Source: a virus
IMG/VR virus record: IMGVR_UViG_3300050343_000145
Location: 3,217 to 67,216 of that record
Length of the DNA stretch: 64,000 bases
Strand: one strand, 5' to 3'
The position numbers were made by a program, and so were the translations under genes. Of this stretch, positions 306-46,170 are shown piece by piece (the stretch's first letter is position 1; every line of letters begins with the position of its first letter). The notes below the pieces were generated by a model. That model worked only from the letters and a program-made list of their open reading frames with translations, had not been told where the DNA came from and ran no database searches.

Positions 306-1070
306 CTACAGATAATCAAGCACTTGCGAGCTATCTACGTTGTCGATTAGGGTTTGTATAGCATCACGTTTTATTTGTGAAATTCTTACATGAGCAGTGC
401 TCACACTAATTCCAACTTGAGTGGCTATATCGTTTGCAGAATGCTTATCACAGTCTAAACCGTAACTTAGCCTCAATACATCATATTGTCTTTCGTCTAA
501 ATGCGTTCGCATTAAACCTAGCAAATAAGTATTTAATAAAGCTATGTTATATGGTTCGGATTTGTCTATTACTTGGTAAGCTAAATTTTCATCATCGTTA
601 GGGCTAGCATCGATTGAAGAGAATACTGAATTAAAGAACATCGCAACCATTTTTTCATCTTTAGGATTGCGTCTGATTTCATTTAACTTATGTTCTGGTA
701 TTCTTATGTCGCCTCTACAATTGTCTACGGCTCTTCGTATTGCGCCCTTAATTCTTTTTGATAAGAACGATTTAATTGTTTTTTCTTGATCCTCAGACTC
801 AGATAAAATAGCTCTGTCAATTTTAGACACTGCCGCTGTTAAGCCAATGTTTCCTTCTTGAAACAAATCCATTATACTTAAAACTCCCGACGCTTGATCT
901 GCTGTAGATTGTTTCATTGCAAGTGTAATTACCAGGGGTAAAAAATTAGTAATAATTTCTTGATCGGTTAAAAGTGTATAATCGCCATCAATTGGTTTTT
1001 TAACTTTTTCAATTGCTGCTTCAACTTCGTTTTTATATCTGACGTAATTTTGAATATTAAATTTTCTCAT
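306..1070 (-). CDS. Phage sigma-70-family RNA polymerase sigma factor
   Basis: Region 2 (NFLPLVITLA...DLFQEGNIGLTAAV...IKGAIRRAV), IRIP motif, region 4 HTH (LDERQYDVLRLSYGL...RISQIKRDAIQTL). Confidence 0.88.
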   Translation of the reverse strand: MRKFNIQNYVRYKNEVEAAIEKVKKPIDGDYTLLTDQEIITNFLPLVITLAMKQSTADQASGVLSIMDLFQEGNIGLTAAVSKIDRAILSESEDQEKTIKSFLSKRIKGAIRRAVDNCRGDIRIPEHKLNEIRRNPKDEKMVAMFFNSVFSSIDASPNDDENLAYQVIDKSEPYNIALLNTYLLGLMRTHLDERQYDVLRLSYGLDCDKHSANDIATQVGISVSTAHVRISQIKRDAIQTLIDNVDSSQVLDYL

Positions 1071-3934: not shown

Positions 3935-3941
3935 ATATTAT

Positions 3942-3973
3942 TATTATCCGTGTTTGATCGTGTTTAGTCTGTA
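3942..3973 (-). promoter_or_regulatory. Putative phage early promoter, copy A
   Basis: Minus strand TACAGACTAAACACGA-N8-GGATAATA, just upstream of ATG at 3934. Confidence 0.75.
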
Positions 3974-4350
3974 TTGTTTAATTCTTTTTCAGATTCAATT
4001 CTGTCTTGTACTATTATATATTGTTCATGAAGTAAATCGTCAATGTATAATTCGTCGTAAATTTCTTCATCAACGAATATATCAAGACCATCTTTAACAC
4101 AACTTATAATTTCATCAACTAATCCGGTAGCATAGTAATAAACATTTTCAGGGTTGAAACCATAATCGTCGTTTGCATGAGCCCAATATACTGTATAAGA
4201 GTCTGCAGTATATACAGATTCAAAAATATAGTCACAAGTATTAGTTCCCATATAATCGGTTGTTATTTTAGAGTTGTAATAATCTAATATCCAAGTCTTT
4301 GCTTCTTCGGGTGTGACATCGTGCATGTCTTCTTTATATATTTTTTCCAT
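3964..4350 (-). CDS. Hypothetical acidic protein
   Basis: 128-aa ORF packed in operon. Confidence 0.75.
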   Translation of the reverse strand: MEKIYKEDMHDVTPEEAKTWILDYYNSKITTDYMGTNTCDYIFESVYTADSYTVYWAHANDDYGFNPENVYYYATGLVDEIISCVKDGLDIFVDEEIYDELYIDDLLHEQYIIVQDRIESEKELNNTD

Positions 4351-4351
4351 A

Positions 4352-4600
4352 TTAATCTAGTAATACCATATAGGCTTTAGGGTTATTTTTTCTAAACCAT
4401 GACAAACCGTCTTGCCAGTTTTTTACTGTTATATCAGTTAAAGTGTCAGGGGTTATCATTGCACACCCCATAACAAAGTCGTACATACTTAATTCTAAGT
4501 TATTAAGTTCGTAGCTTTCGCCAGAGAATGGATTTGTTACACTATCGCCTTGATCGTATACGGTTCCATTAAACCATTTAGGTAATTTATTTTGTTTCAT
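4352..4600 (-). CDS. Hypothetical phage protein
   Basis: 82-aa ORF with 1-nt spacing to neighbours; ends WFRKNNPKAYMVLLD. Confidence 0.75.
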   Translation of the reverse strand: MKQNKLPKWFNGTVYDQGDSVTNPFSGESYELNNLELSMYDFVMGCAMITPDTLTDITVKNWQDGLSWFRKNNPKAYMVLLD

Positions 4601-4601
4601 A

Positions 4602-5075
4602 TTAACATTGTTTACATACTGTGAATTTCTCTTCTTTCCATTGCGTATAGCCCATTCCGGGTTCAGCGTATTTTTCTATTATTGTGTTAGGACTGCCAAC
4701 AAATATATTTTGATTAGAGTAGTTATCCCAACAACTTAACCATACATCAGGCTTGCCAACCCATATAATCCATGTATAATGGTGGTCAATTGATGTGACA
4801 CTAGGGTATAAGTACTGACTGTTGTAGTGGAAGTCGTGTACTAAGTGGCTTGCAATTCTTGATCCATCACCAAAGTTGTTAAAACCTTGGTCTTTTTGCA
4901 TGTAGTTTACCCAGTTAGCTAGCTCAACACCACGCCACGAAGGGTAACCATCATGGTGCATGTACATGTTTACATAGCTATCGTCTTTAACTTTTTCGGG
5001 ATTAACTGCGAAGCCTGCTTCAAATTGTTTTGCTTCTGATCGATTTACGACCATTGTTACGTTTCTAGTACTCAT
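4602..5075 (-). CDS. Conserved phage early protein (YxHxDGYP motif)
   Basis: MSTR N-terminus and YMHHDGYPSWRG motif, typical of a widespread phage family of unknown function. Confidence 0.75.
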   Translation of the reverse strand: MSTRNVTMVVNRSEAKQFEAGFAVNPEKVKDDSYVNMYMHHDGYPSWRGVELANWVNYMQKDQGFNNFGDGSRIASHLVHDFHYNSQYLYPSVTSIDHHYTWIIWVGKPDVWLSCWDNYSNQNIFVGSPNTIIEKYAEPGMGYTQWKEEKFTVCKQC

Positions 5076-5076
5076 A

Positions 5077-5295
5077 TTATTTAATTAGGGATGATAAGTA
5101 TAACCATACTTGTTTTTGTTTGTATAAACCGCTTAAAATACTTTCGTGCATTTCAACAGTGATACCAACTTTAGATAATGTTTTGTTATCTATGTTTTCC
5201 TGACAGTCTTTAATCTCATTTTCAAGGTGGCATAAGTTTGCAAAAACTTTACAGACTGCTCGCTCTTTCGTTTCTTTAAGGTGATCAACATTCAT
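5077..5295 (-). CDS. Hypothetical protein
   Basis: 72-aa ORF with overlapping stop/start. Confidence 0.7.
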   Translation of the reverse strand: MNVDHLKETKERAVCKVFANLCHLENEIKDCQENIDNKTLSKVGITVEMHESILSGLYKQKQVWLYLSSLIK

Positions 5296-5522
5296 TAGTC
5301 TTTAATTATTATATTGTCGCCGTATAGCACAGAATCAATTGATCTGTCGTAAAAGTCTGCCCACGTTTGTAGTTGTCTGACGTCGTCAACAGTTAATTGA
5401 TACCACGCCGTGTGACTCATTAGTCTGTATTTTAGTTGTTTAGCGGTGGCATATTCCCTCGCATTTGCATTTAGATTTTTCTTTAATTCAGGAAATAATC
5501 TTTGGTAAAGTGATTTGCTCAT
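5295..5522 (-). CDS. Hypothetical protein
   Basis: 75-aa ORF directly downstream of promoter copy B. Confidence 0.7.
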   Translation of the reverse strand: MSKSLYQRLFPELKKNLNANAREYATAKQLKYRLMSHTAWYQLTVDDVRQLQTWADFYDRSIDSVLYGDNIIIKD

Positions 5523-5549
5523 AATTTAATTTTATTTAGTTTACATTTA

Positions 5550-5581
5550 TATTATCCGTTTGTATTCGTATTTAGTTTGTA
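5550..5581 (-). promoter_or_regulatory. Putative phage early promoter, copy B
   Basis: TACAAACTAAATACGA-N8-GGATAATA. Confidence 0.8.
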
Positions 5582-5737
5582 TTAAACCATTTCTTCAATC
5601 ACACCGATTAACTCGCTGATTATCAATACTATAGTTGCCGCTATTATGTTGAAAGGTATTAGCGCATACCCGCCAATTCTTACTGTACTCTTCAGAATCG
5701 ACACATAAAAATGTTTCGTTGCATTTGGATATTTCAT
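5582..5737 (-). CDS. Small membrane protein (51 aa)
   Basis: Manual translation MKYPNATKHFYVSILKSTVRIGGYALIPFNIIAATIVLIISELIGVIEEMV; starts just after the tRNA. Confidence 0.65.
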   Translation of the reverse strand: MKYPNATKHFYVSILKSTVRIGGYALIPFNIIAATIVLIISELIGVIEEMV

Positions 5738-5740
5738 TAG

Positions 5741-5812
<72 letters not shown>

Positions 5813-5817
5813 TTTAG

Positions 5818-5899
5818 TGGAAGTGGGCGGAGTCGAACCGCCGTTTGAGATGTCGTGTACCGCAATCAAGCGAACAGTCTCACTTACCATATCACTCCC
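5818..5899 (-). ncRNA. 82-nt tmRNA-TLD-like / atypical alanyl tRNA-like RNA
   Basis: GGGAGTG/CACTTCC acceptor with G3:U70 and A73; perfect T arm GGCGG-TTCGACT-CCGCC; no D stem; TGAGA/TCTCA helix followed by AAC linker. Confidence 0.75.
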
Positions 5900-5904
5900 T
5901 AAAA

Positions 5905-6149
5905 AGGTGAGGCGGACAGCACTGGAAAGTTAATCTGTTTATACTGTCTTTCTGGCAATTCACTTATGTGTAAGTTAGTGTAGCGTCTGGAAATTCATCA
6001 AACAATTATTAAGTGTAATACACTCCCGTCTTCTTTTGGGTAATTACTCCCTAGAATTCACATACACTTATAATTGGCTTCAAATCCTTCTTAGCTTCCT
6101 ATTTCTTACCTAATTAAGCTACTCGTCCTTCCAACCTTAAACCTCACCT
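5905..6149 (-). ncRNA. Candidate ~245-nt structured RNA
   Basis: No plausible ORF; ends pair (AGGTGAGG/CCTCACCT); internal stems TAGCTT/AAGCTA, CAATTATAAGTGTA/TACACTTAATAATTG, GACAGTAT/GTGCTGTC. Confidence 0.6.
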
Positions 6150-6152
6150 ATA

Positions 6153-6341
6153 TTATTTTCTGCGCCAAGCTCGGTGAACGGAATCGCTCACCTCTTGACT
6201 CACTATCTGTATTGTGTTACCTGTTTTATGTGCTATTATAGGTACATAAGAATAGGTTTGGGTTGTTGAACAAGGCATACAAGTTCTATATCCTAATTTG
6301 ATTCGTACTTCGTGTACTTTGTCGCCGCATTTACAATACAT
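6153..6341 (-). CDS. Small C4 zinc-finger protein (DksA/TraR-finger-like)
   Basis: CKCG...RIKLGYRTCMPCS. Confidence 0.7.
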   Translation of the reverse strand: MYCKCGDKVHEVRIKLGYRTCMPCSTTQTYSYVPIIAHKTGNTIQIVSQEVSDSVHRAWRRK

Positions 6342-6368
6342 ATATTAATTTTTTATTTGTTACATTTA

Positions 6369-6400
6369 TATTATCCAATACTAGTCGTATTTAGTTTGTA
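6369..6400 (-). promoter_or_regulatory. Putative phage early promoter, copy C
   Basis: TACAAACTAAATACGA-N8-GGATAATA; would drive the zinc-finger gene and the RNA cluster. Confidence 0.8.
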
Positions 6401-6509
6401 TCCATTGTGGAATACCTGAGTTGTATCGTTCCCAATACTGTTGTTCCGCTGCAATTATTTGTGCTTGCAGTAATTTGTGGTGGCTAAACTTTCTCTTTCG
6501 TTTGTTCAT
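6381..6509 (-). CDS. Microprotein (42 aa)
   Basis: Manual translation MNKRKRKFSHHKLLQAQIIAAEQQYWERYNSGIPQWIQTKYD. Confidence 0.5.
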   Translation of the reverse strand: MNKRKRKFSHHKLLQAQIIAAEQQYWERYNSGIPQWIQTKYD

Positions 6510-6675
6510 ATAGTTTTCTTATTGCTAGGTTCATGACGTGCGAATGTATAGCGTTGTAGTTATCGCCTTCCGCTTCATACTCTGATAGTTGCCAATCAAT
6601 ACTATCATACATTAATTCTTTAGTGACGTCTGCAATACCCTGTGCAATATCGTCTAATTCTTTCATTTTACTCAT
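6484..6675 (-). CDS. Hypothetical protein
   Basis: 63-aa ORF. Confidence 0.7.
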   Translation of the reverse strand: MSKMKELDDIAQGIADVTKELMYDSIDWQLSEYEAEGDNYNAIHSHVMNLAIRKLYEQTKEKV

Positions 6676-6790
6676 TATTTTTATATTTTTTGTATTCTTC
6701 TTGTGTTACCCATTTATCAATTTCTGATATAAATACCATTTCATCTCTAAATATTAATCCATTAAAGTTACCTTGTTCTAAAAATCTCAT
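6668..6790 (-). CDS. Microprotein (40 aa)
   Basis: Manual translation MRFLEQGNFNGLIFRDEMVFISEIDKWVTQEEYKKYKNNE; tightly coupled to neighbours. Confidence 0.55.
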   Translation of the reverse strand: MRFLEQGNFNGLIFRDEMVFISEIDKWVTQEEYKKYKNNE

Positions 6791-6791
6791 A

Positions 6792-6905
6792 CTATATATT
6801 ATTTAGTAATTCATCTTTGTCGAAACCTTGCTCTATTGCAAACTCTAGTGATCCTTCACCGAACTTTTCTTCGAACAACCGTTCTAATTCTTCTGTATTA
6901 TTCAT
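6792..6905 (-). CDS. Acidic microprotein (37 aa)
   Basis: Manual translation MNNTEELERLFEEKFGEGSLEFAIEQGFDKDELLNNI. Confidence 0.55.
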   Translation of the reverse strand: MNNTEELERLFEEKFGEGSLEFAIEQGFDKDELLNNI

Positions 6906-7116
6906 TGTAATAAGGTTTTAAGTAGTTAGTGTTATAATTAATTGATTTTGCTACATTTTGTCTGAATTGCCACTCGTTTTTTCTGTATTCATAGCTTTGA
7001 CACCATTTTTTCGTTGCAGTTACTTGTGGTATTGTACCGTATTTGGCTTCATAGTCAAGACATTGCTGTAGTTTGGCTTGTATTAATTCAGGTTTGTAGT
7101 CTTTAAATTTATTCAT
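6898..7116 (-). CDS. Hypothetical protein
   Basis: Track ORF 6898..7122 with ATG at 7116, downstream of promoter copy D. Confidence 0.7.
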   Translation of the reverse strand: MNKFKDYKPELIQAKLQQCLDYEAKYGTIPQVTATKKWCQSYEYRKNEWQFRQNVAKSINYNTNYLKPYYNE

Positions 7117-7125
7117 ATTCAATTA

Positions 7126-7157
7126 TATTATCCGTTTTTGTTCGTGTCTAGTTTGTA
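7126..7157 (-). promoter_or_regulatory. Putative phage early promoter, copy D
   Basis: TACAAACTAGACACGA-N8-GGATAATA. Confidence 0.78.
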
Positions 7158-7385
7158 AGTCACACCTGAGTTGTTATAGTTCCATATTGTAGTATAACTA
7201 GGTTTCTTACGTTTACTGTAGTTGCTTTTTTGTTCAACTCGGTATCTTTTGTTACCCATACCACTGCAAGGTCCGTGTACTTTAGCCATCTCATAGTGAG
7301 AATGAGCTCGTTGTTTTCTTTTTGCTTTGGTAAATGCGAGGAGTTCTTTCATCGTCTTACATACATAGTAGGTTTTATTTGTCAT
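7128..7385 (-). CDS. Basic hypothetical protein
   Basis: Track ORF 7128..7433; likely start MTNKTYY at 7385. Confidence 0.6.
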   Translation of the reverse strand: MTNKTYYVCKTMKELLAFTKAKRKQRAHSHYEMAKVHGPCSGMGNKRYRVEQKSNYSKRKKPSYTTIWNYNNSGVTYKLDTNKNG

Positions 7386-7509
7386 AGTGTTCAAGTATTT
7401 CTTCGACTGCATTACTGAAGTCATGGTGATCAATTGTTTCTTCTCTTAACATTTTAGCATGGAAGTGCAGTTCGTTAAGTAGTTCGCGTAGTGTTTTATC
7501 TAGTATCAT
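7375..7509 (-). CDS. Microprotein (44 aa)
   Basis: Manual translation MILDKTLRELLNELHFHAKMLREETIDHHDFSNAVEEILEHYDK. Confidence 0.55.
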   Translation of the reverse strand: MILDKTLRELLNELHFHAKMLREETIDHHDFSNAVEEILEHYDK

Positions 7510-7616
7510 AATGTAAATCCGCCGTTGTTAAGTAAGTTAGTTAAGTAGATTACTGTTCCGATAAAGATTGCAAGGTTGTACTTTTGTACTGTAGTCATTT
7601 CGTTATTATTTTTCAT
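7506..7616 (-). CDS. Single-TM microprotein (36 aa)
   Basis: Manual translation MKNNNEMTTVQKYNLAIFIGTVIYLTNLLNNGGFTL; ATGA overlap with the next ORF. Confidence 0.55.
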   Translation of the reverse strand: MKNNNEMTTVQKYNLAIFIGTVIYLTNLLNNGGFTL

Positions 7617-7631
7617 ATTATTAATTTATTA

Positions 7632-7663
7632 TATTATCCGTTAGTTGTCGTATTTAGTTTGTG
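7632..7663 (-). promoter_or_regulatory. Putative phage early promoter, copy E
   Basis: CACAAACTAAATACGA-N8-GGATAATA. Confidence 0.78.
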
Positions 7664-8064
7664 AGTCTCGATTATACCTAGTACATCTTCTCTAGTTAGT
7701 TTATCTTCCATTTGCATACCTATTGCCCAAGTAAGATCATTTCCGTAATTATCTGTATATATCATTGTATTCGTTTTTTATCATTCCTTTTTCTCATCTA
7801 TTCATTTTAATTTTATTTAGTTTGTTTATTAATTCACTTAGTATATTCAGTGTTAGTGTACTTTAATCTTTCGTCAAACCAATCTTGATTTACTATTTCA
7901 TAAGTTAGAAAGTAGTTGAATATTTCATTTTCATTTTCTATGTTTTCAATAGTTCCACAGTAGTCTGGGTTTTCATTTAGGTTAGTAATTTCTTTTTGAA
8001 TTCATTTTTAATTAGTGGTAAAGTTCTTAACATATTTCATATTATTTATTATTTGTTACACTTA

Positions 8065-8096
8065 TATTATCCATTTAACTTCGTATTTAGTTTGTA
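8065..8096 (-). promoter_or_regulatory. Putative phage early promoter, copy F
   Basis: TACAAACTAAATACGA-N8-GGATAATA. Confidence 0.8.
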
Positions 8097-8110
8097 AGTT
8101 TGTATAGAAA

Positions 8111-8251
8111 TTATCTTACTCTATCGTATTTTGAAATTGGTATCATTTCAATTAACTTTCTCATTCTTTCACGAGATTTATCGGTAGGATTAAAGTTAGA
8201 GTGGAACTCATCTATTTGTTGTAATTCTAGGTATATTTCTTTTAAATTCAT
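8111..8251 (-). CDS. Microprotein (46 aa)
   Basis: Manual translation MNLKEIYLELQQIDEFHSNFNPTDKSRERMRKLIEMIPISKYDRVR with A-rich leader. Confidence 0.55.
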   Translation of the reverse strand: MNLKEIYLELQQIDEFHSNFNPTDKSRERMRKLIEMIPISKYDRVR

Positions 8252-8272
8252 TTTATATTATTTTAATTTTAG

Positions 8273-8313
8273 TTGACACGGTGAGAATCGAACTCACAAA
8301 AACCGTTGTGTCA
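8273..8313 (-). ncRNA. 41-nt tRNA minihelix-like element
   Basis: TGACAC/GTGTCA acceptor-like stem, short linker, perfect T arm GTGAG-TTCGATT-CTCAC, discriminator A then CTA. Confidence 0.6.
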
Positions 8314-8428
8314 TTTACTCATTCACATTTTTATACTTATAGAAACAAGTGGAACTTAAAGTAGGTAGTTTGTTTACTGTTGTAAATTTGTTTACAGATG
8401 TAACCCTTCACCTGTGTACCTGTAAAAG

Positions 8429-8476
8429 TGTGACATTAGGTACATAATGATTTAATAGTAGTTAGCTATTGTCACT
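8429..8476. promoter_or_regulatory. ~47-bp imperfect dyad, copy 2
   Basis: TGTGACATTAGG...TAGTAGTTAGCTATTGTCACT; arms GTGACATTAG/CTATTGTCAC. Confidence 0.7.
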
Positions 8477-8785
8477 GTTTTCAAGTAGTTTAATTCTTTC
8501 GATTACTACATTTCGAACATTACTTGGCATGTCAGTTGATTGAGACCAGTAACCTCTCTTTAACCAGCAAGGTAGAATGTTTAGTTTAGGTAACATTACT
8601 TTAAGAACCTCATCGTGATTGTAGGTTATTTGTTCATGTTTGTTATTGATGAAGGTAATGATTTGGTTTCTACCGTACCAAGACTTTCTTACAACAAAGT
8701 TATTGCGGTGAATCGGTGGGAAGATTTCAGTTAGTTCATCTTTACTTAGGTTAGTGATCGCATCGTTTAATTTTAATTTATTCAT
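8462..8785 (-). CDS. Hypothetical protein, first gene of the early block
   Basis: Track ORF 8462..8812; likely ATG at 8785 given promoter copy G. Confidence 0.75.
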   Translation of the reverse strand: MNKLKLNDAITNLSKDELTEIFPPIHRNNFVVRKSWYGRNQIITFINNKHEQITYNHDEVLKVMLPKLNILPCWLKRGYWSQSTDMPSNVRNVVIERIKLLENSDNS

Positions 8786-8815
8786 AATAGTTACATTTAA
8801 TTTGTTATACACTTA

Positions 8816-8847
8816 TATTATCCGAGATACTTCGTGTTTAGTCTGTA
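8816..8847 (-). promoter_or_regulatory. Putative phage early promoter, copy G
   Basis: TACAGACTAAACACGA-N8-GGATAATA. Confidence 0.8.
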
Positions 8848-15426: not shown

Positions 15427-16989
15427 ATGGAATATAATAACCCAAGTGAGATAGTAAAAGACCTTTCCTTTGGGAAGGATGCTAGAAATAAAATTATGCA
15501 CGGGGTAGATAAATTGACAAGTGCAGTTAAGTCTACCCTTGGTGCTTCTGGAAAATGCGTTATATATGAAGACGCACTAGGAAGGCCGGTGATCACAAAA
15601 GATGGTGTAACCGTAGCGGAAAGCGTAGTCTTAATCGACCCGGTCGAAAATATTGGCGCAACTTTAATAAAAGAAGCAGCAAGAAATACAGTAAGAGAAG
15701 CGGGTGATGGCACAACAACAGCCACAGTGCTTGCTCATTCATTGCTGCATTTAGCCAATGATCACAAAGACGATAATAACATAAGAGATATTAAAAAAGG
15801 TATTTTAAGTGGCTTAAATAAAGTCAACAAATATCTTGATAAAAAAGCTATTGAAGTAAAAGACAATATGCTCGAAAGTGTTGCAGCAATTAGCTGTAAT
15901 AATGATAAAGCTCTTGGTGGTGTTATATCGCAAGCTTACTCAAAAGTAGGTAAGGATGGTGTTGTCCTTATGGAGGAGTCTGAGACCCATGACACATACG
16001 TAAAATTCGTAGAGGGCACTAGGTTAGACTGCGGACTCAAGTCGCCACATTTTATAACAGATAAGGATAAAGGTAAAGCGGTACTAGAAAATCCGTACGT
16101 ACTGATAGTTTCATCGCCAGTACCTAATATCCGTAAAATACAAAACGTATTGGAGTTTGTTATCAAATCGAAAAGAAGCTTACTGATCGTAGCAGGCGTA
16201 GAACAACAACCTATGGCAGCGTTGCTAGCAAACAAAGTCAAAGGTAATATAAAAGTAAATGTTGTGGATCTGCCTGGATTCGGTCCGACTAAACAAGATA
16301 CAATTGAAGACCTTGCGATATTAACCGGAGCTAAAGTAATGAATGAAGAATTAGGAGATGATCTTGATTTAATTTCACCTGAAGTTTTAGGACAAGCTGT
16401 TTTATCAGTTACAGATGACAAGCATACTGTACTGCAAATAACTGACCAGGGTGTTGTGCTTGATGAACGAATAGAAACAGTTGAAAAGAAAGTTAGAGAA
16501 GAAAAAAATCCATTCTTTAAAAAGAAGTTGCAAGAAAGATTAGCAATGTTGAACGGCCAAGTGGCAATGATTAAAGTAGGTGCGGACTCTAAAGTTGAAA
16601 TGAAAGAAAAGAAAGATAGAGTTGAGGATGCAATATATGCTACTAAAGCAGCGTTGCAAGAAGGTATTGTTCCAGGTGGTGGAGTAGCACTATTAAATGC
16701 TTCTCAAAAAATTAAACCTAACGGTTTGGGTGAGCAAATACTGTTAGAAGCAATTAAATCACCATACAAAACAATAATTGCTAATGCAAATTTACCTTAT
16801 GCGGAATATCCTACGGCAGGAACTGGTATTGATGTTGCAAACGAAGCACCAGTTAGAATGGTTAATAAAGGAATTATTGATCCTGTGTTAGTGACTAAAA
16901 CAGCATTGAAAAATGCAGTTAGTGTGGCTAATACAATATTTTCAGCGGATTGTGTAATTAACAATGTAAGAAGTTATGAAAGCAATTAA
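15427..16989 (+). CDS. groEL: Phage-encoded chaperonin GroEL
   Basis: ITKDGVTVAE, AGDGTTTATVLA, PGFG, EKKDRVEDAIYATKAA, EGIVPGGG, GIIDP motifs; no GGM tail. Confidence 0.97.
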   Translation: MEYNNPSEIVKDLSFGKDARNKIMHGVDKLTSAVKSTLGASGKCVIYEDALGRPVITKDGVTVAESVVLIDPVENIGATLIKEAARNTVREAGDGTTTATVLAHSLLHLANDHKDDNNIRDIKKGILSGLNKVNKYLDKKAIEVKDNMLESVAAISCNNDKALGGVISQAYSKVGKDGVVLMEESETHDTYVKFVEGTRLDCGLKSPHFITDKDKGKAVLENPYVLIVSSPVPNIRKIQNVLEFVIKSKRSLLIVAGVEQQPMAALLANKVKGNIKVNVVDLPGFGPTKQDTIEDLAILTGAKVMNEELGDDLDLISPEVLGQAVLSVTDDKHTVLQITDQGVVLDERIETVEKKVREEKNPFFKKKLQERLAMLNGQVAMIKVGADSKVEMKEKKDRVEDAIYATKAALQEGIVPGGGVALLNASQKIKPNGLGEQILLEAIKSPYKTIIANANLPYAEYPTAGTGIDVANEAPVRMVNKGIIDPVLVTKTALKNAVSVANTIFSADCVINNVRSYESN

Positions 16990-41535: not shown

Positions 41536-44500
41536 ATGCCTGAAATCAAAAACGCTTTCATAAAAGGTAAAATGAATAAAGACCTTGATGAGAGATTAGT
41601 TCCTAATGGTGAATATAGAGATGCATTAAACATTGACGTTGATTATTCAGAGGGCAGTGATGCTGGTGCATTAAAAAATGTTTTAGGCAATATCGCAGTA
41701 GGCTCAATTCCAGGAAGCGGGGAAGATATTATTTCTACGGGGTATTGCATTGGAAACGTTAAGGATACTAAAGAAAATAAAATATATTGGTTAATACAAG
41801 ATAATTTATTCACACACCCTATAAACGGAACATATGAAAATAGAGATATAATAGCCGAATATGATATTGAAACAAACACTTTATCACCTGTATTAATAGA
41901 TTTCGAGGCTAATGCATTAAACTTTAATAGATCATTTTTAGTTACCGGCATAAATATATTAGACGGTGTATTGTACTTTACAGATGGTTTAAATGAGCCT
42001 AAACAAATCGATGTTGAATACTGGAAGACTCAAACTTCAAATTTTTATACCGACACAACAGGACTAACGGAAGAAAGAATTACTGTTATTAAAAAATCAC
42101 CACTACAAGCGCCAACTTTAGATATGGACAGCTCTACAAGGGGTGGGAATGGAACACAAGGAAATACAAATGTTTATGTTAATTTAAATTTATCTGACGG
42201 CGGCGGCCAAGCTACTGCTCTTGATAATTCTTTAGATTCTGGTGATGATATAGTAGGCACATTTTCTTTATCGCCAAACTATAAGCCAGGAGATATAATT
42301 ATATTAACGCACTCGTTTACAGATCCTGCTAGCAACGAAGAAACCAAACTTGAGGCTAGAATATTATTAAAATCTACTTATACAGTACAAGCTACATTTT
42401 TTCAATCAGAACTTTTAACAATAAGTGAAACTGTGCCAGGCGGTATTGTTCAATGGCAAGCAATATTAGAAGAAGATGAGCCTTTATTTGAGTTAAAATT
42501 TCCACTATTTTCATACCGATATAAATATAACAATGGCCAATATAGCTGTTTTGCTCCTTTTTCTAAAGCTGCATTTTTACCAGATTCAAATAAAATAGGT
42601 GAAAATTTTGAATACGATTCAAAGAATGGTTATAATGTAGGAATGACAAACACATTAAGACAATTAGAATTACAAGGATTAAACCATAATATCAGTGTCG
42701 ATGTTGATGAGGTGGATGTGTTATATAAGGAGTCTAATAGTAATAATATATACATTGTAGATACAATCAAAAAAGTAAACGGCACATTAGCTAGCATATT
42801 TAAAATAAAAGACGAACAAATATTTAAAACAGTTGAAGCTAATCAATTGTTGAGGTTATTTGATAGTGTGCCTAAAAAAGCGCAAACACAAGAAATATCT
42901 GCAAACAGAATTATATATGGTAATTACACACATCAATTTGATTTACCAAATGAAAACCCGTTATTTGATGTAAAGCTTAAAAATAGATATAACCCTAGTG
43001 ACGCTACATATGCCGAAGACAAAAAACAAATGTTGTCTATTAAATCTAATAGAACATATCAGTTAGGTGTTGTATATATAGATAAATATGGCAGACAAAC
43101 ACCAATATTAACGGACAAGTCTGGGATCATTAAAGTTCCATTTAATCAAGCAAAAAACAAAACACAATTCAAAGTTAGTGTTACTAACGGTGGGGCAAGT
43201 GGTTTTGAAAATTATAAATACTTTGTAAAAGAAATATCTTCAACGACATACAATTTATGTGCCGACAGTTTTTATCAAGATGATGAAGGCGCAATATATA
43301 TATCTTTCCCTTCTTCTGAAATTAATAAAGTCAAAGAAGAGGATATATTATTATTAAAGAAAAAGGCTGGTAATAATTTAAGTGAAGATGGAACTAAATT
43401 TAAAGTTTTAGATAAACTTAACGCGGTGCCTGATTTTCTTGCTAAACCGCTCAGCGCAGACTATGTACCCGAGTATTTCAATTTTGGCAGACAATTTAAT
43501 AGAGACAGTGGATATGCCGAACAACCAACTGCAGCAGAAAGAGATGGTGGTTATATGGGTACAAATGCATCACAATCTGGCGGTAAAGCTTGGTTTTTAG
43601 AGCCAGGATCAACGCCGGTTCCAAATCACAACTCTATTATAATAAGAGATATGTTTAATGTTGGCGATGTGCAAATTGCTGACGCAAGTTCTCAATATAC
43701 CTCAGAATTCAATGGTATTTCTGCTGAAGCTAGAAGCGCAATGAAACCGGGGTCGAAAATAAGATGGAATGTTGGTGGTGCACAAACAAAAGTTTATACT
43801 GTAAAATCATTTCAAATTGGTACTGGACCCTCAAGCACGTCTCATGACGACGCAGAAGTAACCTTCGAAGAAGAATTTGGTGAAGATGTATTAGTGTTAT
43901 ATGATGAACAAGATTACGAAGACAATCCAAGAATAGCTGTTTTAGCGCAAGGTATAACTATAGAAACATTAAAGACTAAAGACGAGAGCGGCAAAGCTGA
44001 ATTTGCAGGTAAGTTTTTCTTAAAATTACAAGCTTCTTCAAATTTATTAAACGAATTAGTTGACACAACAAACACAGATCAATTAGTAGCAAGATCATCA
44101 ATTAGATTTGATGGTTATGATGATGGTAATTTTAGAAATGATGAAAGTAACAGTTATAGACAGTTCTTTATTGCGTATGGAGGTAAAGCGGGAACAGATT
44201 CCTCACAATTGTCCTCTTTGTCAAGACCGCTTAATCAAGGTGGATGGGCCCACTCAACTGCTGGTTTAAATTTACCTGCAAACTGGGAAGATGATGGTTA
44301 TCATTTTGTTTTACAAACCGAAAGAAAATTAAATGACGCTGACAGTAATTATGGCAGTCACCCTTTTATAAAAAATTTAAAAGAAGGTAACTACATACGA
44401 TTTAGTGGTTTTAAATACAGCGGCACCACTAGATGGTTTGATGAAAAATATTACAAAATAAAAAAGATATTAAAAAGAAATTACACCGGGAGTGGAGATG

Positions 44501-46170
44501 ATAATAATAATAGATTGTTCTTTATAAAGTTAGATCAAGCTTTAGATTATGATTTAACATTCCGCGATCAATCAAGTCAACAAAGCACCATTGGTAGAGG
44601 GTATTCGTATGCAACTGTTTTTGATTTTGATACGAATAAATCAATAAATATAATTAATCCACCTATATTTGAAGTGGAACCTCAGGATGATGTAGACATC
44701 GATATATATTATGAAACTCAAGAAGTATTTCCCATGAGTGGATTGTCTACTGCAAAAAATTTAGAATACCATAACTGTTATAGTTTTGGCAATGGTGTTG
44801 AATCTTTTGTTATAAGAGATGACTACAATGCTCCTGTATTAGGAAAAGGTGTTCGTGTTTCGACTGTATTTGAAGATAACTACCAAGAAGAAAATTTAAA
44901 ATCTGGGTTAATATACTCACAAGTATATAATGGTAAAACAGGTATTAATAGATTAAACCAATTTATTATAGCTGATAAAATTACAAAAGATTTAAATCCC
45001 GAATACGGAAGTATACAGAAGTTACACGGCAGAAATACTGACTTGTTGGCATTATGTGAAGATAAAATTGTAAAAATATTAGCAAATAAAGACGCTGTAT
45101 TTAATGCAGATGGTAATCCTCAATTAATTGCAAGCAATAGAGTGCTTGGGCAAGCTATTATACCCGCAACATTTGGATCATACGGTTGCCAAAACCCCGA
45201 AAGTTTTGTGGAGTTTACATATAGATCCTACTTTGTAGATAAAGTAAGGGGATGTGTATTAAGGTTGTCAGCAGATGGAATTACTGAAGTTTCAAACTAC
45301 GGAATGAAAGATTATTTTAAAGATAATTTAAGAGCACAGGTTTCAAACTCTAATTATGGTAGAATATTTGGAACATACGACGAAGTCAAAAATCAATATA
45401 ATGTTTCGTTACCTACAGGTGTTACAACTACAGTTTCTTATTCTGAGTCAATAAACGGTTGGGTTAGTAGAAAAAGTTTTATACCAGAAGGCGGATTAAG
45501 CATAAACAATAAATATTACACATTTAAAAACGGTAGTTTATATGAGCACCATAGTGAGTCAGGAGTAAGGAATACTTTTTATGGGATAAAAACAAACCCA
45601 GAGGTTACGTTTTTATTTAATGAGGTGCCCGCGAATGTTAAAAATTTTAGAACATTAAATTACGAGGGAGATGAAGGTTGGACATGCACAAGTATAATTA
45701 CCGAAAAGCAAGACGGGTCTGTTCCTTCGTTTGTTGAAAAAGAAGGTAAATATTATAACTATATATCCGGTGTTACCGAAAATGAAAATACTATAGATAC
45801 AAAAGCTTTGAATGTACAGGGGCTAGGTAGCTTAGCTTCACAAACAACAAATAGCGGAAATAGAATATTCACATTCAATTTTAATTTAAATAGTGATTTA
45901 CAAATTGGTGATAATTTATATTATGTAGATTCATCAAGTAATAAACAAGATTTAGGTAAAATAACAGCAATAAATAAAGTTAACAAAACAATCACTATTG
46001 CAGATGGCTCAGAAGTCCCTCAAGCATCCGCTTACATGTTTTACAGCAAGGACGCTAAGTTTAACACATCTGGTATTTTAGGATACTATGCAGAAACAAA
46101 AATGACAAACACATCTACAGATTTTAAAGAGCTTTACTCAGTTGGTTCTGAAATTAGTATAAGTAGTTAA
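41536..46170 (+). CDS. Tail stabilisation/nozzle protein (P22 gp10 / crAss muzzle-like)
   Basis: N-terminal GKMNKDLDERLVPNGEYRDALNI, LYFTDGLNEPK, YGCQNPESF; beta-propeller-like C-half. Confidence 0.8.
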   Translation: MPEIKNAFIKGKMNKDLDERLVPNGEYRDALNIDVDYSEGSDAGALKNVLGNIAVGSIPGSGEDIISTGYCIGNVKDTKENKIYWLIQDNLFTHPINGTYENRDIIAEYDIETNTLSPVLIDFEANALNFNRSFLVTGINILDGVLYFTDGLNEPKQIDVEYWKTQTSNFYTDTTGLTEERITVIKKSPLQAPTLDMDSSTRGGNGTQGNTNVYVNLNLSDGGGQATALDNSLDSGDDIVGTFSLSPNYKPGDIIILTHSFTDPASNEETKLEARILLKSTYTVQATFFQSELLTISETVPGGIVQWQAILEEDEPLFELKFPLFSYRYKYNNGQYSCFAPFSKAAFLPDSNKIGENFEYDSKNGYNVGMTNTLRQLELQGLNHNISVDVDEVDVLYKESNSNNIYIVDTIKKVNGTLASIFKIKDEQIFKTVEANQLLRLFDSVPKKAQTQEISANRIIYGNYTHQFDLPNENPLFDVKLKNRYNPSDATYAEDKKQMLSIKSNRTYQLGVVYIDKYGRQTPILTDKSGIIKVPFNQAKNKTQFKVSVTNGGASGFENYKYFVKEISSTTYNLCADSFYQDDEGAIYISFPSSEINKVKEEDILLLKKKAGNNLSEDGTKFKVLDKLNAVPDFLAKPLSADYVPEYFNFGRQFNRDSGYAEQPTAAERDGGYMGTNASQSGGKAWFLEPGSTPVPNHNSIIIRDMFNVGDVQIADASSQYTSEFNGISAEARSAMKPGSKIRWNVGGAQTKVYTVKSFQIGTGPSSTSHDDAEVTFEEEFGEDVLVLYDEQDYEDNPRIAVLAQGITIETLKTKDESGKAEFAGKFFLKLQASSNLLNELVDTTNTDQLVARSSIRFDGYDDGNFRNDESNSYRQFFIAYGGKAGTDSSQLSSLSRPLNQGGWAHSTAGLNLPANWEDDGYHFVLQTERKLNDADSNYGSHPFIKNLKEGNYIRFSGFKYSGTTRWFDEKYYKIKKILKRNYTGSGDDNNNRLFFIKLDQALDYDLTFRDQSSQQSTIGRGYSYATVFDFDTNKSINIINPPIFEVEPQDDVDIDIYYETQEVFPMSGLSTAKNLEYHNCYSFGNGVESFVIRDDYNAPVLGKGVRVSTVFEDNYQEENLKSGLIYSQVYNGKTGINRLNQFIIADKITKDLNPEYGSIQKLHGRNTDLLALCEDKIVKILANKDAVFNADGNPQLIASNRVLGQAIIPATFGSYGCQNPESFVEFTYRSYFVDKVRGCVLRLSADGITEVSNYGMKDYFKDNLRAQVSNSNYGRIFGTYDEVKNQYNVSLPTGVTTTVSYSESINGWVSRKSFIPEGGLSINNKYYTFKNGSLYEHHSESGVRNTFYGIKTNPEVTFLFNEVPANVKNFRTLNYEGDEGWTCTSIITEKQDGSVPSFVEKEGKYYNYISGVTENENTIDTKALNVQGLGSLASQTTNSGNRIFTFNFNLNSDLQIGDNLYYVDSSSNKQDLGKITAINKVNKTITIADGSEVPQASAYMFYSKDAKFNTSGILGYYAETKMTNTSTDFKELYSVGSEISISS

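What the first reader, a model, noticed from the sequence alone, without database searches (positions are those of the whole stretch)
5905..6149. Unrecognised ~245-nt structured RNA upstream of the mini-tmRNA
Seen: an ORF-free stretch in a gene-dense region whose ends form an 8-bp helix (AGGTGAGG at 6149-6142 with CCTCACCT at 5912-5905, then TTTT). Internal stems on the minus strand are TAGCTT/AAGCTA; CAATTATAAGTGTA/TACACTTAATAATTG enclosing TTCT/AGAA and GGG/CCC; and GACAGTAT/GTGCTGTC, whose loop CTTTCCA can pair with TGGAAGG near the 5' end (possible long-range pseudoknot). A motif recurs: TGAATTCTAG, TGAATTTCCAGA, TGAATTGCCAGA. It also contains GGGAGTG (6027-6021), identical to the 5' acceptor strand of the downstream element. 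Known: large phage ncRNAs such as GOLLD and ROOL often lie in tRNA clusters. I do not recognise this one. Inference: a new ncRNA class, possibly a partner of the TLD element or a protein sponge.
Basis: partly seen in the sequence, partly recalled or inferred. Interest (0 to 1): 0.8.

Follow-up and report, generated by a model that had tools for sequence, protein, structure and literature searches.

The report
Modular structured RNA of marine phage
This stretch encodes a real structured RNA that matches no family in the RNA catalogue searched here, built from nested, interchangeable modules and sitting next to a tmRNA-like gene in an uncultured marine phage; its function is still unknown.

Summary
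The feature is real and lies at the stated coordinates, on the minus strand at 6149-5905. It is not one RNA class but a nest of recurrent RNA modules.

- **Outer scaffold ("O").** It has 11 distinct homologues with compensatory changes.
- **Core hairpin.** It sits inside O and has the order P1, ACGAGUA/GAAUWG loop, P2, AUUAG/ACA loop, P3.
  - There are 180 distinct copies in IMG/VR and marine metagenome contigs, and 0 hits in 185,579 species genomes.
  - Covariation is strong: one P2 pair is C-G in 144 copies, G-C in 35 and mismatched in 1.
- **P3 cargo.** In the window P3 carries three nested modules (a > c > b). Across the family the P3 segments fall into 42 sequence clusters. The same modules also occur inside tmRNA-like TLD genes.

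No Rfam 15 family matches.

The RNA lies in one promoter-to-promoter unit with a 62-aa ORF, a TLD-only tmRNA-like gene and tRNA-Met. RNA-library contigs from three studies hold it exactly.

The function is inferred, not shown. My best guess is a stable scaffold that displays protein-binding decoy modules, in a hypervariable RNA island.

The parts
6366..6392 (-). Promoter-like repeat AAATACGA-N8-GGATAATATAA upstream of the 62-aa ORF. The next copy is at 5573-5547.
   Evidence: 7 copies, all on the minus strand between 3939 and 8839, against 0.04 expected by chance. Its function as a promoter is inferred.
6153..6341 (-). 62-aa Cys-rich ORF (CxC...CxxC, ending AWRRK). Its stop codon lies 3 nt before the RNA.
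   Evidence: No Pfam or PHROG match. The end of this ORF precedes the RNA island in many related loci.
5905..6149 (-). The whole composite ncRNA: outer element O enclosing the core hairpin and its nested cargo.
   Evidence: No Rfam match.
6142..6149 (-). O1 5' strand (AGGTGAGG). It pairs with 5912-5905.
   Evidence: 6 bp are paired in 11 of 11 O homologues, with U-A in 7 and A-U in 4 at pair 5.
6129..6134 (-). S2 5' strand (TTGGAA), one side of the pseudoknot. It pairs with 5927-5922.
   Evidence: complementary in 11 of 11. The only change is one-sided (U.G in 8, C-G in 3).
5951..6131 (-). Core hairpin as matched by model R1. P1 is G6128-G6127 with C5955-C5954. The first loop is ACGAGTA (6126-6120) opposite GAATTG (5961-5956). 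P2 is 6119-6115 with 5966-5962. The second loop is ATTAG (6114-6110) opposite ACA (5969-5967). P3 is 6109-5970.
   Evidence: 39.5 bits, E 3.7e-7. Covariation. In the window P1 is only 2 bp, because the O scaffold replaces it.
5975..6104 (-). Module a: internal loop AAATAGGA (6104-6097) opposite ACACTAA (5981-5975), between outer stem GTAAG/CTTAC and inner stem AGC (6096-6094) / GCT (5984-5982).
   Evidence: recurrent with covarying flanking stems; 34 distinct copies, of which 15 are in TLDs, 10 in core P3 and 9 elsewhere.
5990..6086 (-). Module c: GATTTGAAGC (6086-6077) opposite TTTGATGAATTTC (6002-5990). It encloses the helix 6076-6066 / 6014-6003.
   Evidence: 9 distinct copies, 7 in core P3 and 2 in TLDs.
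6015..6065 (-). Module b: GTATGTG (6065-6059) opposite ACGGGAGTGTATTAC (6029-6015), with a variable tip hairpin at 6058-6030.
   Evidence: 25 distinct copies. The two bases flanking the module covary (GT/AC, AT/AT, TT/AA, GC/GC).
5915..5948 (-). S3 hairpin, GACAG (5948-5944) with CTGTC (5919-5915). Its loop holds the conserved ATAAACAGA and the S2 3' strand TTCCAG (5927-5922). The inner hairpin S4 seen in homologues is missing here.
   Evidence: S3 is paired in 11 of 11, with two compensatory positions.
5905..5912 (-). O1 3' strand (CCTCACCT), followed by the T run.
   Evidence: A T run of 4 or more follows O1 in 6 of 11 homologues. No terminator-like site was found.
5815..5899 (-). Neighbouring tmRNA-like tRNA-like domain (TLD only): acceptor stem with G3.U70, a T arm, and only 38 nt where the model's 326-nt central region (which includes the tag frame) would be.
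   Evidence: Rfam tmRNA 36.1 bits, below the gathering score of 47, E 1.1e-12. ARAGORN does not call it.
5741..5812 (-). tRNA-Met (CAU).
   Evidence: 70.1 bits.

Best explanation
**What it is (shown).** The stretch 6149-5905 on the minus strand encodes a composite structured RNA of an uncultured marine phage. The phage record is 67 kb and complete by CheckV. The RNA has three layers:
- A pseudoknotted outer element, O, made of O1, S2 and S3.
- A conserved core hairpin inserted into O. Its two internal loops are almost invariant in sequence (ACGAGUA opposite GAAUWG, and AUUAG opposite ACA). Its stems P1 and P2 covary.
- A tip, P3, that acts as a slot for interchangeable cargo hairpins. In the window the cargo is modules a, c and b, nested one inside the other.

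**Where it sits (shown).** It lies between two copies of a promoter-like repeat, in this order: 62-aa ORF, this RNA, a TLD-only tmRNA-like gene, tRNA-Met, 51-aa ORF.

**How it works (inferred).**
- It is made as part of one early transcript.
- RNase P cutting at the 5' end of the TLD, near 5899/5900, frees its 3' end.
- It then persists as a stable RNA whose invariant internal loops and cargo modules are docking sites for host or phage RNA-binding proteins.
- In short, it would be a scaffold that displays decoy or sponge modules, working beside the TLD decoys.
- The island is reshuffled by recombination under diversifying pressure.

**My odds.** About 0.85 that it is a genuine functional structured RNA family. 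About 0.3-0.35 for the display/decoy mechanism.
For: **Structure**
- Core model R1 hits the window at 39.5 bits, E 3.7e-7.
- I found 180 distinct core copies. Two have odd 5' motifs and may be false.
- P2 pair 2 is C-G in 144, G-C in 35 and mismatched in 1, although the search pattern allowed all four combinations. Fisher p = 1.5e-36, ignoring relatedness.
- P1 pairs 1 to 5 are paired in 178, 180, 170, 166 and 162 of 180 copies, with several pair types.
- In 96 distinct metagenome copies that were not used to build R1, 98.8% of cells are paired, 5 of 10 pairs change on both sides, and 0 of 500 shuffles reach the covariation score. Slid registers give 16-45% paired.
- P3 folds as one enclosing hairpin in 118 of 132 distinct versions, against 27 of 132 when shuffled.
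- O1 and S3 show compensatory changes and are paired in 11 of 11 homologues.

**Strand**
- P2 pair 1 is G.U in 169 of 180 copies, which would be a C.A mismatch on the other strand.

**Scaffold plus cargo**
- 134 distinct P3 segments fall into 42 clusters.
- Modules a, b and c occur in core P3 (10, 16, 7 copies), inside TLDs (15, 3, 2) and elsewhere (9, 6, 0).
- One P3 cluster of 5 holds a closed acceptor-stem plus T-arm minihelix. It has no free 3' end, so it cannot be charged; binding is what remains open to it.

**Hypervariability**
- L006 is 96.8% identical upstream, 100% over the TLD and tRNA, and 98.3% downstream, yet it has no BLAST match to the ncRNA at E<1e-5. L011 and L025 carry other combinations.

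**Distribution**
- 0 hits in 185,579 species genomes.
- 38 and 41 stretches in IMG/VR.

**Presence in RNA libraries**
- Contigs with 0 differences cover 5870-6019 in X15 and X18.
- One covers 5815-5899 in X16, and that contig is exactly the 85-nt TLD.
- Near-exact short contigs (0-1 differences) cover 6012-6086 and 6057-6108 in X15 and 5990-6041 in X16 and X18.
- X15, X16 and X18 come from three studies.

**Context**
- A promoter-like repeat flanks the unit and there is no terminator-like site.
- A TLD-only tmRNA is known from mycobacteriophage DS6A, and SmpB titration was proposed for it (PMC4131195, passages read).
Against: - No experiment or tool result shows any protein binding, the ends of the RNA, or its stability.
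- The RNA-library contigs cannot prove transcription or give strand or ends. The tool itself warns that DNA can be present in such libraries.
- The folding energy of the window copy is not exceptional: z = -1.64.
- The pseudoknot S2 has no double compensatory change.
- P1 is reduced to 2 bp in the window, so the core may behave differently here.
- The sequences are related, so the counts of covarying cells overstate the number of independent events.
- 13 of 41 related loci lack the core, so it is dispensable.
- The host is unknown, so no target protein can be named.
- The reading of AGUA opposite GAA as a sarcin-ricin (loop E) type motif rests on my recall of that consensus, not on a tool.
Confidence: 0.5

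Rival explanations
1. It is a cis-acting 3'-UTR or processing element. The folded RNA protects the upstream 62-aa ORF message from 3' exonucleases after RNase P cuts at the TLD, or it simply spaces and orders processing of the polycistronic RNA. It has no function in trans.
For: - The RNA starts 3 nt after the ORF stop codon.
- There is no promoter-like repeat between the ORF and the RNA.
- Module a alone sits between a stop codon and a terminator-like hairpin in an unrelated contig, L239.
Against: - Simple stabilisers do not need two near-invariant internal loops kept across phages whose ligases are only 52-96% identical.
- They would not need 42 kinds of cargo either.
- In some loci (L026, L030) the core follows other RNA-like sequence, not the ORF.
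Confidence: 0.15
2. It is a working partner of the neighbouring TLD. It either supplies in trans what the TLD-only molecule lacks (a split tmRNA-like system with a message part) or docks on the TLD.
For: - It lies directly upstream of the TLD.
- 114 of 167 core copies have an acceptor-stem plus T-arm element within 1.5 kb downstream.
- The core and the TLDs share cargo modules.
- The 5' strand of the core reads like the 5' side of a tRNA: L020 3626-3782 scored 37.5 bits on the tRNA model.
Against: - There is no conserved reading frame. The invariant block is kept at the nucleotide level, and its one common change (C to G) is matched by the partner base, which is a structural pattern and not a coding one. 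Two of the three frames hit stop codons inside it (my reading of the sequence).
- TLDs occur without the core (L038; 13 loci).
- Rfam's permuted-tmRNA model gives only 14.4 bits, and that match lies on the TLD and tRNA, not on the candidate.
Confidence: 0.12
3. It is an RNA-only assembly. The modules are tertiary-contact motifs that let the RNA form multimers or cages, as shown for ROOL and GOLLD.
For: - It is a phage RNA beside tRNA genes, like ROOL and GOLLD (bioRxiv 10.1101/2024.12.08.627333, passages read).
- Module a is usually capped by a GAAA loop and has a conserved internal loop.
Against: - Members can be as short as 46 nt.
- The cargo is not conserved.
- There is no match to the ROOL or GOLLD models.
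- No structural test was run.
Confidence: 0.08
4. It is a self-cleaving ribozyme that cuts the polycistronic RNA into pieces.
For: It is a small hairpin with two strongly conserved internal loops, placed between RNA genes.
Against: - No Rfam ribozyme family matches at E<=10.
- The two loops sit 5 bp apart in a single stack of helices, so they cannot easily dock on each other (my reasoning).
- RNase P sites already explain the processing.
Confidence: 0.04
5. It is not a functional RNA. It is decayed tRNA or TLD remnants, or a DNA-level recombination hotspot.
For: - The 5' strand of the core resembles the acceptor and D-arm side of a tRNA.
- The region is a recombination mosaic.
Against: - The stems show compensatory changes while the loops stay invariant.
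- G.U pairs are specific to the coding strand.
- The RNA is present in RNA libraries.
Confidence: 0.03

Closest known systems
GOLLD and ROOL (large ornate phage and prophage RNAs near tRNA islands)
   Same: They are phage-encoded structured RNAs of unknown function placed beside tRNA genes, and they were found by covariation. One GOLLD example lies downstream of a Met-tRNA in a marine sample (bioRxiv 10.1101/2024.12.08.627333, passages).
   Different: - There is no match to either Rfam model.
- This RNA is much smaller (46-303 nt for the core, 245 nt for the window composite).
- Its architecture is a conserved handle with swappable cargo, not one large conserved fold.
T4 RNAC and RNAD (species 1 and 2 RNAs)
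   Same: They are small stable phage RNAs whose function is still unknown (PMC9697503, passages). From recall only: they are encoded by the T4 tRNA gene cluster and processed with the tRNAs.
   Different: I tested no sequence or structure relation here. The T4 RNAs are not known to be modular or hypervariable (recall).
TLD-only tmRNA of mycobacteriophage DS6A, and tmRNA in general
   Same: The window's neighbour at 5899-5815 is of this kind. The same cargo modules are found in such TLDs in related loci. A decoy role (SmpB titration) was proposed for DS6A (PMC4131195, passages).
   Different: The candidate itself has no acceptor stem, T arm or tag frame, and the tmRNA models do not match it.
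Bacterial Y RNA-like RNAs (YrlA)
   Same: They are modular non-coding RNAs that combine a protein-binding stem with a tRNA-like module (PMC4201824; I saw only the start of its abstract in the search listing).
   Different: The YrlA model does not match the candidate. The only hit is 18.6 bits, below threshold, over TLDs in L020.
Sarcin-ricin / loop E (bulged-G) internal loop motif
   Same: The core's first loop has AGUA next to P2 on the 5' strand and GAA next to P2 on the 3' strand. This fits that motif's consensus as I recall it.
   Different: This is a motif-level likeness only. It rests on recall and on inspecting the sequence, with no 3D test. The rest of the loop (ACG opposite UWG) is specific to this family.

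Membership tests
Core hairpin family (defined here, model R1) | The invariant loops ACGAGUA / GAAUWG and AUUAG / ACA flanking a 5-bp P2 | tested here: met
   Window 5951-6131(-), 39.5 bits, E 3.7e-7. Coordinates.
Core hairpin family (defined here, model R1) | A 5-bp P1 helix closing the element | tested here: not met
   Only G6128-G6127 with C5955-C5954 can pair. The same GG...CC form recurs in O-embedded copies in L091, L099, L108, L143, L157 and L165.
Core hairpin family (defined here, model R1) | P3 is a single enclosing hairpin | tested here: met
   The MFE fold of 6110-5970 is one enclosing hairpin. Family-wide it holds for 118 of 132 versions.
Outer pseudoknotted element O (defined here) | O1 end helix, S3 hairpin, S2 long-range pairing, and the conserved ATAAACAGA | tested here: met
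   parses the window as one of 11 members. The inner hairpin S4 of the other members is absent: the window has 4 nt there, the others 12-80 nt.
tmRNA (RF00023) / permuted tmRNA (RF04321) | Acceptor stem with G3.U70, a T arm, and a tag reading frame | tested here: not met
   There is no match over 5905-6149. The matches lie on 5815-5899 (36.1 bits, below the gathering score of 47) and on 5802-5842 (14.4 bits).
tRNA (RF00005) | A cloverleaf with anticodon and T arms | tested here: not met
   ARAGORN and Rfam find only tRNA-Met at 5741-5812.
GOLLD, ROOL, YrlA, ribozyme and other Rfam 15 families | A score at or near the family's gathering threshold | tested here: not met
   Nothing at the gathering threshold in the window. 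At E<=10, the only match over the candidate is a 19-bit GAIT hit (gathering score 37). Short family members in 11 loci also gave none.
Intrinsic terminator | A GC-rich hairpin directly followed by a conserved U run | tested here: not met
   0 terminator-like sites in 5200-7200. A T run of 4 or more follows O1 in 6 of 11 homologues. The TLD and tRNA downstream have no promoter-like repeat of their own.
Sarcin-ricin / loop E motif | The non-canonical pairs and bulged G seen in 3D structures | not testable with these tools
   Only the sequence pattern AGUA opposite GAA beside P2 can be seen. The consensus itself is recalled.

The most novel reading that the evidence does not exclude
These marine phages may run a combinatorial RNA display system. 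A few conserved scaffolds carry a pool of dozens of interchangeable structured cargo modules. The scaffolds are the core hairpin, the pseudoknotted O element and alanine-type TLDs. Recombination reshuffles the cargo even between near-identical genomes. This would produce a changing repertoire of RNA decoys or aptamers against host RNA-binding or defence proteins. It would be an RNA counterpart of protein anti-defence islands, and a natural version of the tRNA-scaffold trick used to express aptamers.
Probability: 0.3. Interest if true: 0.9.

Novelty: new variant of a known kind. Interest (0 to 1): 0.72.

Why it matters
Phage genomes often carry structured RNAs beside their tRNA genes, and the function of most is still unknown (T4 RNAC/RNAD, GOLLD, ROOL).

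This locus adds at least two RNA families that match nothing in Rfam 15 or in the papers I could search. Their covariation is clear, they are widespread in the ocean, and they are present in RNA libraries.

It also shows something unusual: conserved handles that carry swappable, nested modules, which they share with tmRNA-like genes. These handles sit in a spot that differs between genomes that are otherwise 97-100% identical around it.

If the modules are decoys, this would be a new way for phages to manipulate hosts with RNA. It would also be a natural source of compact protein-binding RNA motifs and stable display scaffolds.

The minimal forms (46-61 nt) are small enough for direct biochemical and structural tests.

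Tried and rejected
**Searches and tests that gave nothing**
- Rfam: nothing for the candidate or for module a.
- GenBank phages (INPHARED): only tRNA-Met matches with the 701-nt query, and chance-level matches with an 82-nt family member at E<=10. No cultured relative was found. The ligase and GroEL are under 41% identical to those of known phages.
- Folding energy alone is not significant.
- Pfam and PHROGs on the neighbouring small ORFs gave no informative hits.
- Complement of the conserved ATAAACAGA elsewhere in the window: 13 matches against 18.8 expected, so no target.
- Literature:
  - Phage tmRNA lacking a message domain.
  - New phage RNA motifs (1 irrelevant paper).
  - Phage tRNA-like decoys (nothing relevant in the 15 of 117 papers listed).
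  - The motif strings themselves (0 papers).
  - Subscription journals and supplementary files were not searchable, so prior description cannot be excluded.
- Split-tmRNA or tag reading of the invariant block: rejected because the conservation is structural, not coding.
- K-turn and hammerhead readings of the loops: considered by eye and dropped, because the required GA or CUGA...GAAA arrangements are not there.

**Cover in RNA-library contigs**
- Some bins of the ORF part have no cover in X16 and X18.
- The depth figures cannot rank the RNA against the ORFs.
- Contig ends at module borders (for example at 6127) reflect branching between related phages, not RNA ends.

**Other limits**
- I did not run structure prediction, complex prediction, the protein homology searches or the atlas. 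None of them bears on an RNA.
Full report
**Setting.** The window is bases 3217-67216 of a 67,216-nt IMG/VR virus record that CheckV rates complete. GC content is about 34%.
- It encodes tail-fibre-like proteins, a GroEL, a P22-like portal, a protein with a crAss muzzle C-terminal domain, ribonucleotide reductase, thymidylate synthase, a ligase and a sigma-70-like protein.
- Its proteins are under 41% identical to those of cultured phages, and the GroEL is nearest to those of Flavobacterium and Cellulophaga phages. The host is unknown, possibly marine Bacteroidota.
- The finding lies in a block of small minus-strand genes.
- Seven copies of the repeat AAAYACGA-N8-GGATAATATAA punctuate that block, against 0.04 expected by chance.
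- Between the copies at 6392-6366 and 5573-5547 the order is:
  - a 62-aa Cys-rich ORF (6341-6153);
  - the candidate (6149-5905);
  - a tmRNA-like tRNA-like domain with a G3.U70 acceptor stem and only 38 nt where the model's 326-nt central region, which includes the tag frame, would be (5899-5815; 36.1 bits against a gathering score of 47);
  - tRNA-Met (5812-5741);
  - a 51-aa ORF.
- No terminator-like site was found.

**The observation.**
- The minimum-energy fold is not by itself remarkable: z = -1.64, with 13 of 200 shuffles as good.
- No Rfam 15 family matches the candidate at gathering thresholds or meaningfully at E<=10.

**Relatives.**
- Using the nearby ligase as an anchor I fetched 41 related IMG/VR loci.
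- BLAST of the candidate gave a patchy pattern: two short blocks were kept in most loci, with unrelated sequence between them.
- Reading the loci showed a two-part motif in 28 of the 41 loci plus the window. It is ACGAGTAG[C/G]TTAA...TAA[G/C]TGAAT[A/T]GC, flanked by complementary bases.
- Pattern scans then found:
  - 38 and 41 stretches in IMG/VR;
  - none in one genome for each of 185,579 prokaryote species.
- In all I collected 180 distinct copies, 46-303 nt long with a median of 76. Two have odd 5' motifs and may be false.

**The core hairpin.** Its architecture is:
- P1, about 5 bp;
- an internal loop, ACGAGUA opposite GAAUWG;
- P2, GSUUA with UAASY;
- an internal loop, AUUAG (or AYAG) opposite ACA;
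- P3, which is variable.

Evidence for the helices:
- In 22 short members, 0 of 500 shuffles reach the covariation score.
- I built model R1 from these 22 members.
  - It aligned 100 metagenome copies that were not used to build it, 96 of them distinct.
  - 98.8% of cells pair and 5 of 10 pairs change on both sides.
  - 71 cells show double changes, against 12.8 in shuffles.
  - Slid registers pair only 16-45%.
- The search pattern left both bases of P2 pair 2 free (S...S). The result was C-G in 144, G-C in 35, C-C in 1 and G-G in 0 (Fisher p = 1.5e-36, ignoring relatedness).
- P2 pair 1 is G.U in 169 of 180 copies, which fixes the RNA strand as the gene strand.
- P3 has unrelated sequences: 134 distinct segments in 42 clusters. 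It still folds as one enclosing hairpin in 118 of 132 cases, against 27 of 132 when shuffled.
- R1 finds the window copy at 5951-6131 (39.5 bits, E 3.7e-7). It finds no copy in the 13 loci that lack the motif and only one in the whole phage record.
- The first loop puts AGUA and GAA on either side of P2. As I recall the consensus, this fits the bulged-G (sarcin-ricin or loop E) motif. That is a likeness, not a test.

**The outer element.**
- In the window P1 is only 2 bp, because the core sits inside another recurrent RNA, which I call O. Eleven distinct members could be parsed.
- O has four parts:
  - the hairpin S3 (GACAG/CUGUC), paired in 11 of 11, with GAUAG/CUAUC in 2 and GACGG/CCGUC in 1;
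  - a conserved single strand, ATAAACAGA;
- An inner hairpin S4, which covaries in the others (AGAG/CUCU, AGGG/CCCU, AGGA/UCCU), is deleted in the window.
- The slot in O holds the core in 6 of the 11 parsed members (the window, L091, L108, L143, L157, L165) and other hairpins in 5 (L039, L065, L138, L176, L212). L099 repeats L091's element exactly.

**Nested cargo.** The window's P3 holds three modules, one inside the other.
- Module a is the loop AAAUAGGA opposite ACACUAA between two covarying stems.
- Module c lies inside a: GAUUUGAAGC opposite UUUGAUGAAUUUC.
- Module b lies inside c: GUAUGUG opposite ACGGRAGUGUAUUAC, with covarying flanking pairs.
- By a simple context rule, the modules are distributed as follows:

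| Module | In core P3 | Inside TLDs | Elsewhere |
|---|---|---|---|
| a | 10 | 15 | 9 |
| b | 16 | 3 | 6 |
| c | 7 | 2 | 0 |

- Module a also stands alone between a stop codon and a terminator-like hairpin in a contig binned as an Arcobacteraceae MAG.
- One P3 cluster of 5 is a closed acceptor-stem plus T-arm minihelix.
- The unconstrained MFE fold of the window RNA already contains P2, P3 and the inner stem of module a.

**Hypervariability.**
- L006, L011 and L025 are 94-97% identical to the window over 540 nt upstream, 100% over the TLD and tRNA-Met, and 94-98% downstream.
- Their ncRNAs differ by whole modules:
  - L006 has the core with another form of module b and a full P1;
  - L011 has the same cargo as the window but no O;
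  - L025 has c > b without a.

**Expression.**
- Six metatranscriptome runs hold part of the stretch.
- Four were laid. Three of them (X15, X16, X18), from three studies, hold contigs identical to the window:
  - 5870-6019 in X15 and X18;
  - 5815-5899 in X16, which is exactly the 85-nt TLD.
- Near-exact short contigs (0-1 differences) cover 5990-6041 (X16, X18), and 6012-6086 and 6057-6108 (X15).
- This shows presence in RNA libraries. It does not show the strand, the ends or the level.

**Mechanism.**
- Shown: a conserved, covarying, strand-specific RNA structure; a handle-plus-cargo organisation; linkage to TLD and tRNA genes (114 of 167 copies); restriction to phage contigs; local hypervariability.
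- Inferred:
  - co-transcription from the upstream repeat;
  - release by RNase P at the 5' end of the TLD;
  - a trans-acting role in which the invariant loops and modules bind proteins.
- Arguments for a decoy role:
  - The closed TLD cargo has no free 3' end, so it cannot be charged; binding is what remains open to it.
  - SmpB titration has been proposed for a TLD-only phage tmRNA (PMC4131195, passages).
- I put this at about 0.3-0.35.
- The rivals are a cis stabiliser or processing element, a TLD partner, an RNA-only assembly like ROOL and GOLLD, a ribozyme, or no function.

**Novelty.**
- No Rfam family matches, and no paper in the searchable library holds the motif strings or describes such an island. 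Subscription journals and supplements were not searchable.
- In kind it resembles other phage RNAs of unknown function in tRNA islands: GOLLD, ROOL, and T4 RNAC/RNAD.
- The handle-plus-swappable-cargo design, shared with tmRNA-like genes, is the new element.

Noticed in passing
window 5815-5899 (-): A TLD-only tmRNA-like gene. It has a G3.U70 acceptor stem and a T arm, with only 38 nt where the Rfam model's 326-nt central region (which includes the tag frame) would be. It scores 36.1 bits on Rfam tmRNA (gathering score 47), and ARAGORN does not call it. One RNA-library contig (run X16) is exactly these 85 nt.
   Followed up: partly
window 3939-8839 (-), e.g. 6366-6392 and 5547-5573: Seven copies of AAAYACGA-N8-GGATAATATAA sit upstream of small minus-strand ORFs, against 0.04 expected by chance. 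They are probably phage early or middle promoters. The phage also encodes a sigma-70-like protein (306-1070, minus strand).
   Followed up: partly
L001 about 485-640; also L007, L013, L017, L018, L021, L029, L031, L041: Another recurrent RNA-like element of about 100-190 nt lies between the core hairpin and the TLD. It starts GAGAGGCGGCGGCATAC and ends CTGGTGCCTCTC. I did not analyse it.
   Followed up: no
L016 about 4095-4200; also L002, L008, L010, L015, L023, L024, L026, L028, L030: A tRNA-like element with the acceptor-like stem AACTAG/CTAGTT and a T arm, preceded by CTGACGAGTA. It has large variable inserts and ends in ACAA or ACTA rather than CCA. In several of these loci (for example L008, L015, L023, L024, L028) a further TLD starting GGGGGTGAC follows; two of those (L023, L024) pass Rfam's tmRNA threshold at 63.9-64.9 bits.
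   Followed up: no
L020 3703-3785 and 3786-3884: Two TLD-only tmRNA-like genes lie in tandem directly after the core hairpin. L020 3626-3782 also scored 37.5 bits on the tRNA model, by joining the 5' strand of the core to the T arm of the first TLD.
   Followed up: partly
L109, L111, L112 (core P3): The cargo slot of the core hairpin holds a closed acceptor-stem plus T-arm minihelix. It is a TLD without free ends, so it could not be aminoacylated.
   Followed up: partly
L239 5208-5234 (-): Module a stands alone between the stop codon of an ORF and a terminator-like hairpin. The contig is 36 kb and labelled as an uncultured Arcobacteraceae MAG. It may be a mis-binned phage contig.
   Followed up: partly
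window 41536-46170 (+), 15427-16989 (+), 48014-55936 (+): There is a 1544-aa protein with a crAss muzzle C-terminal domain, a phage GroEL, and a 2640-aa ORF that I did not analyse. They hint at a distant crAss-like or marine Bacteroidota phage lineage.
   Followed up: no
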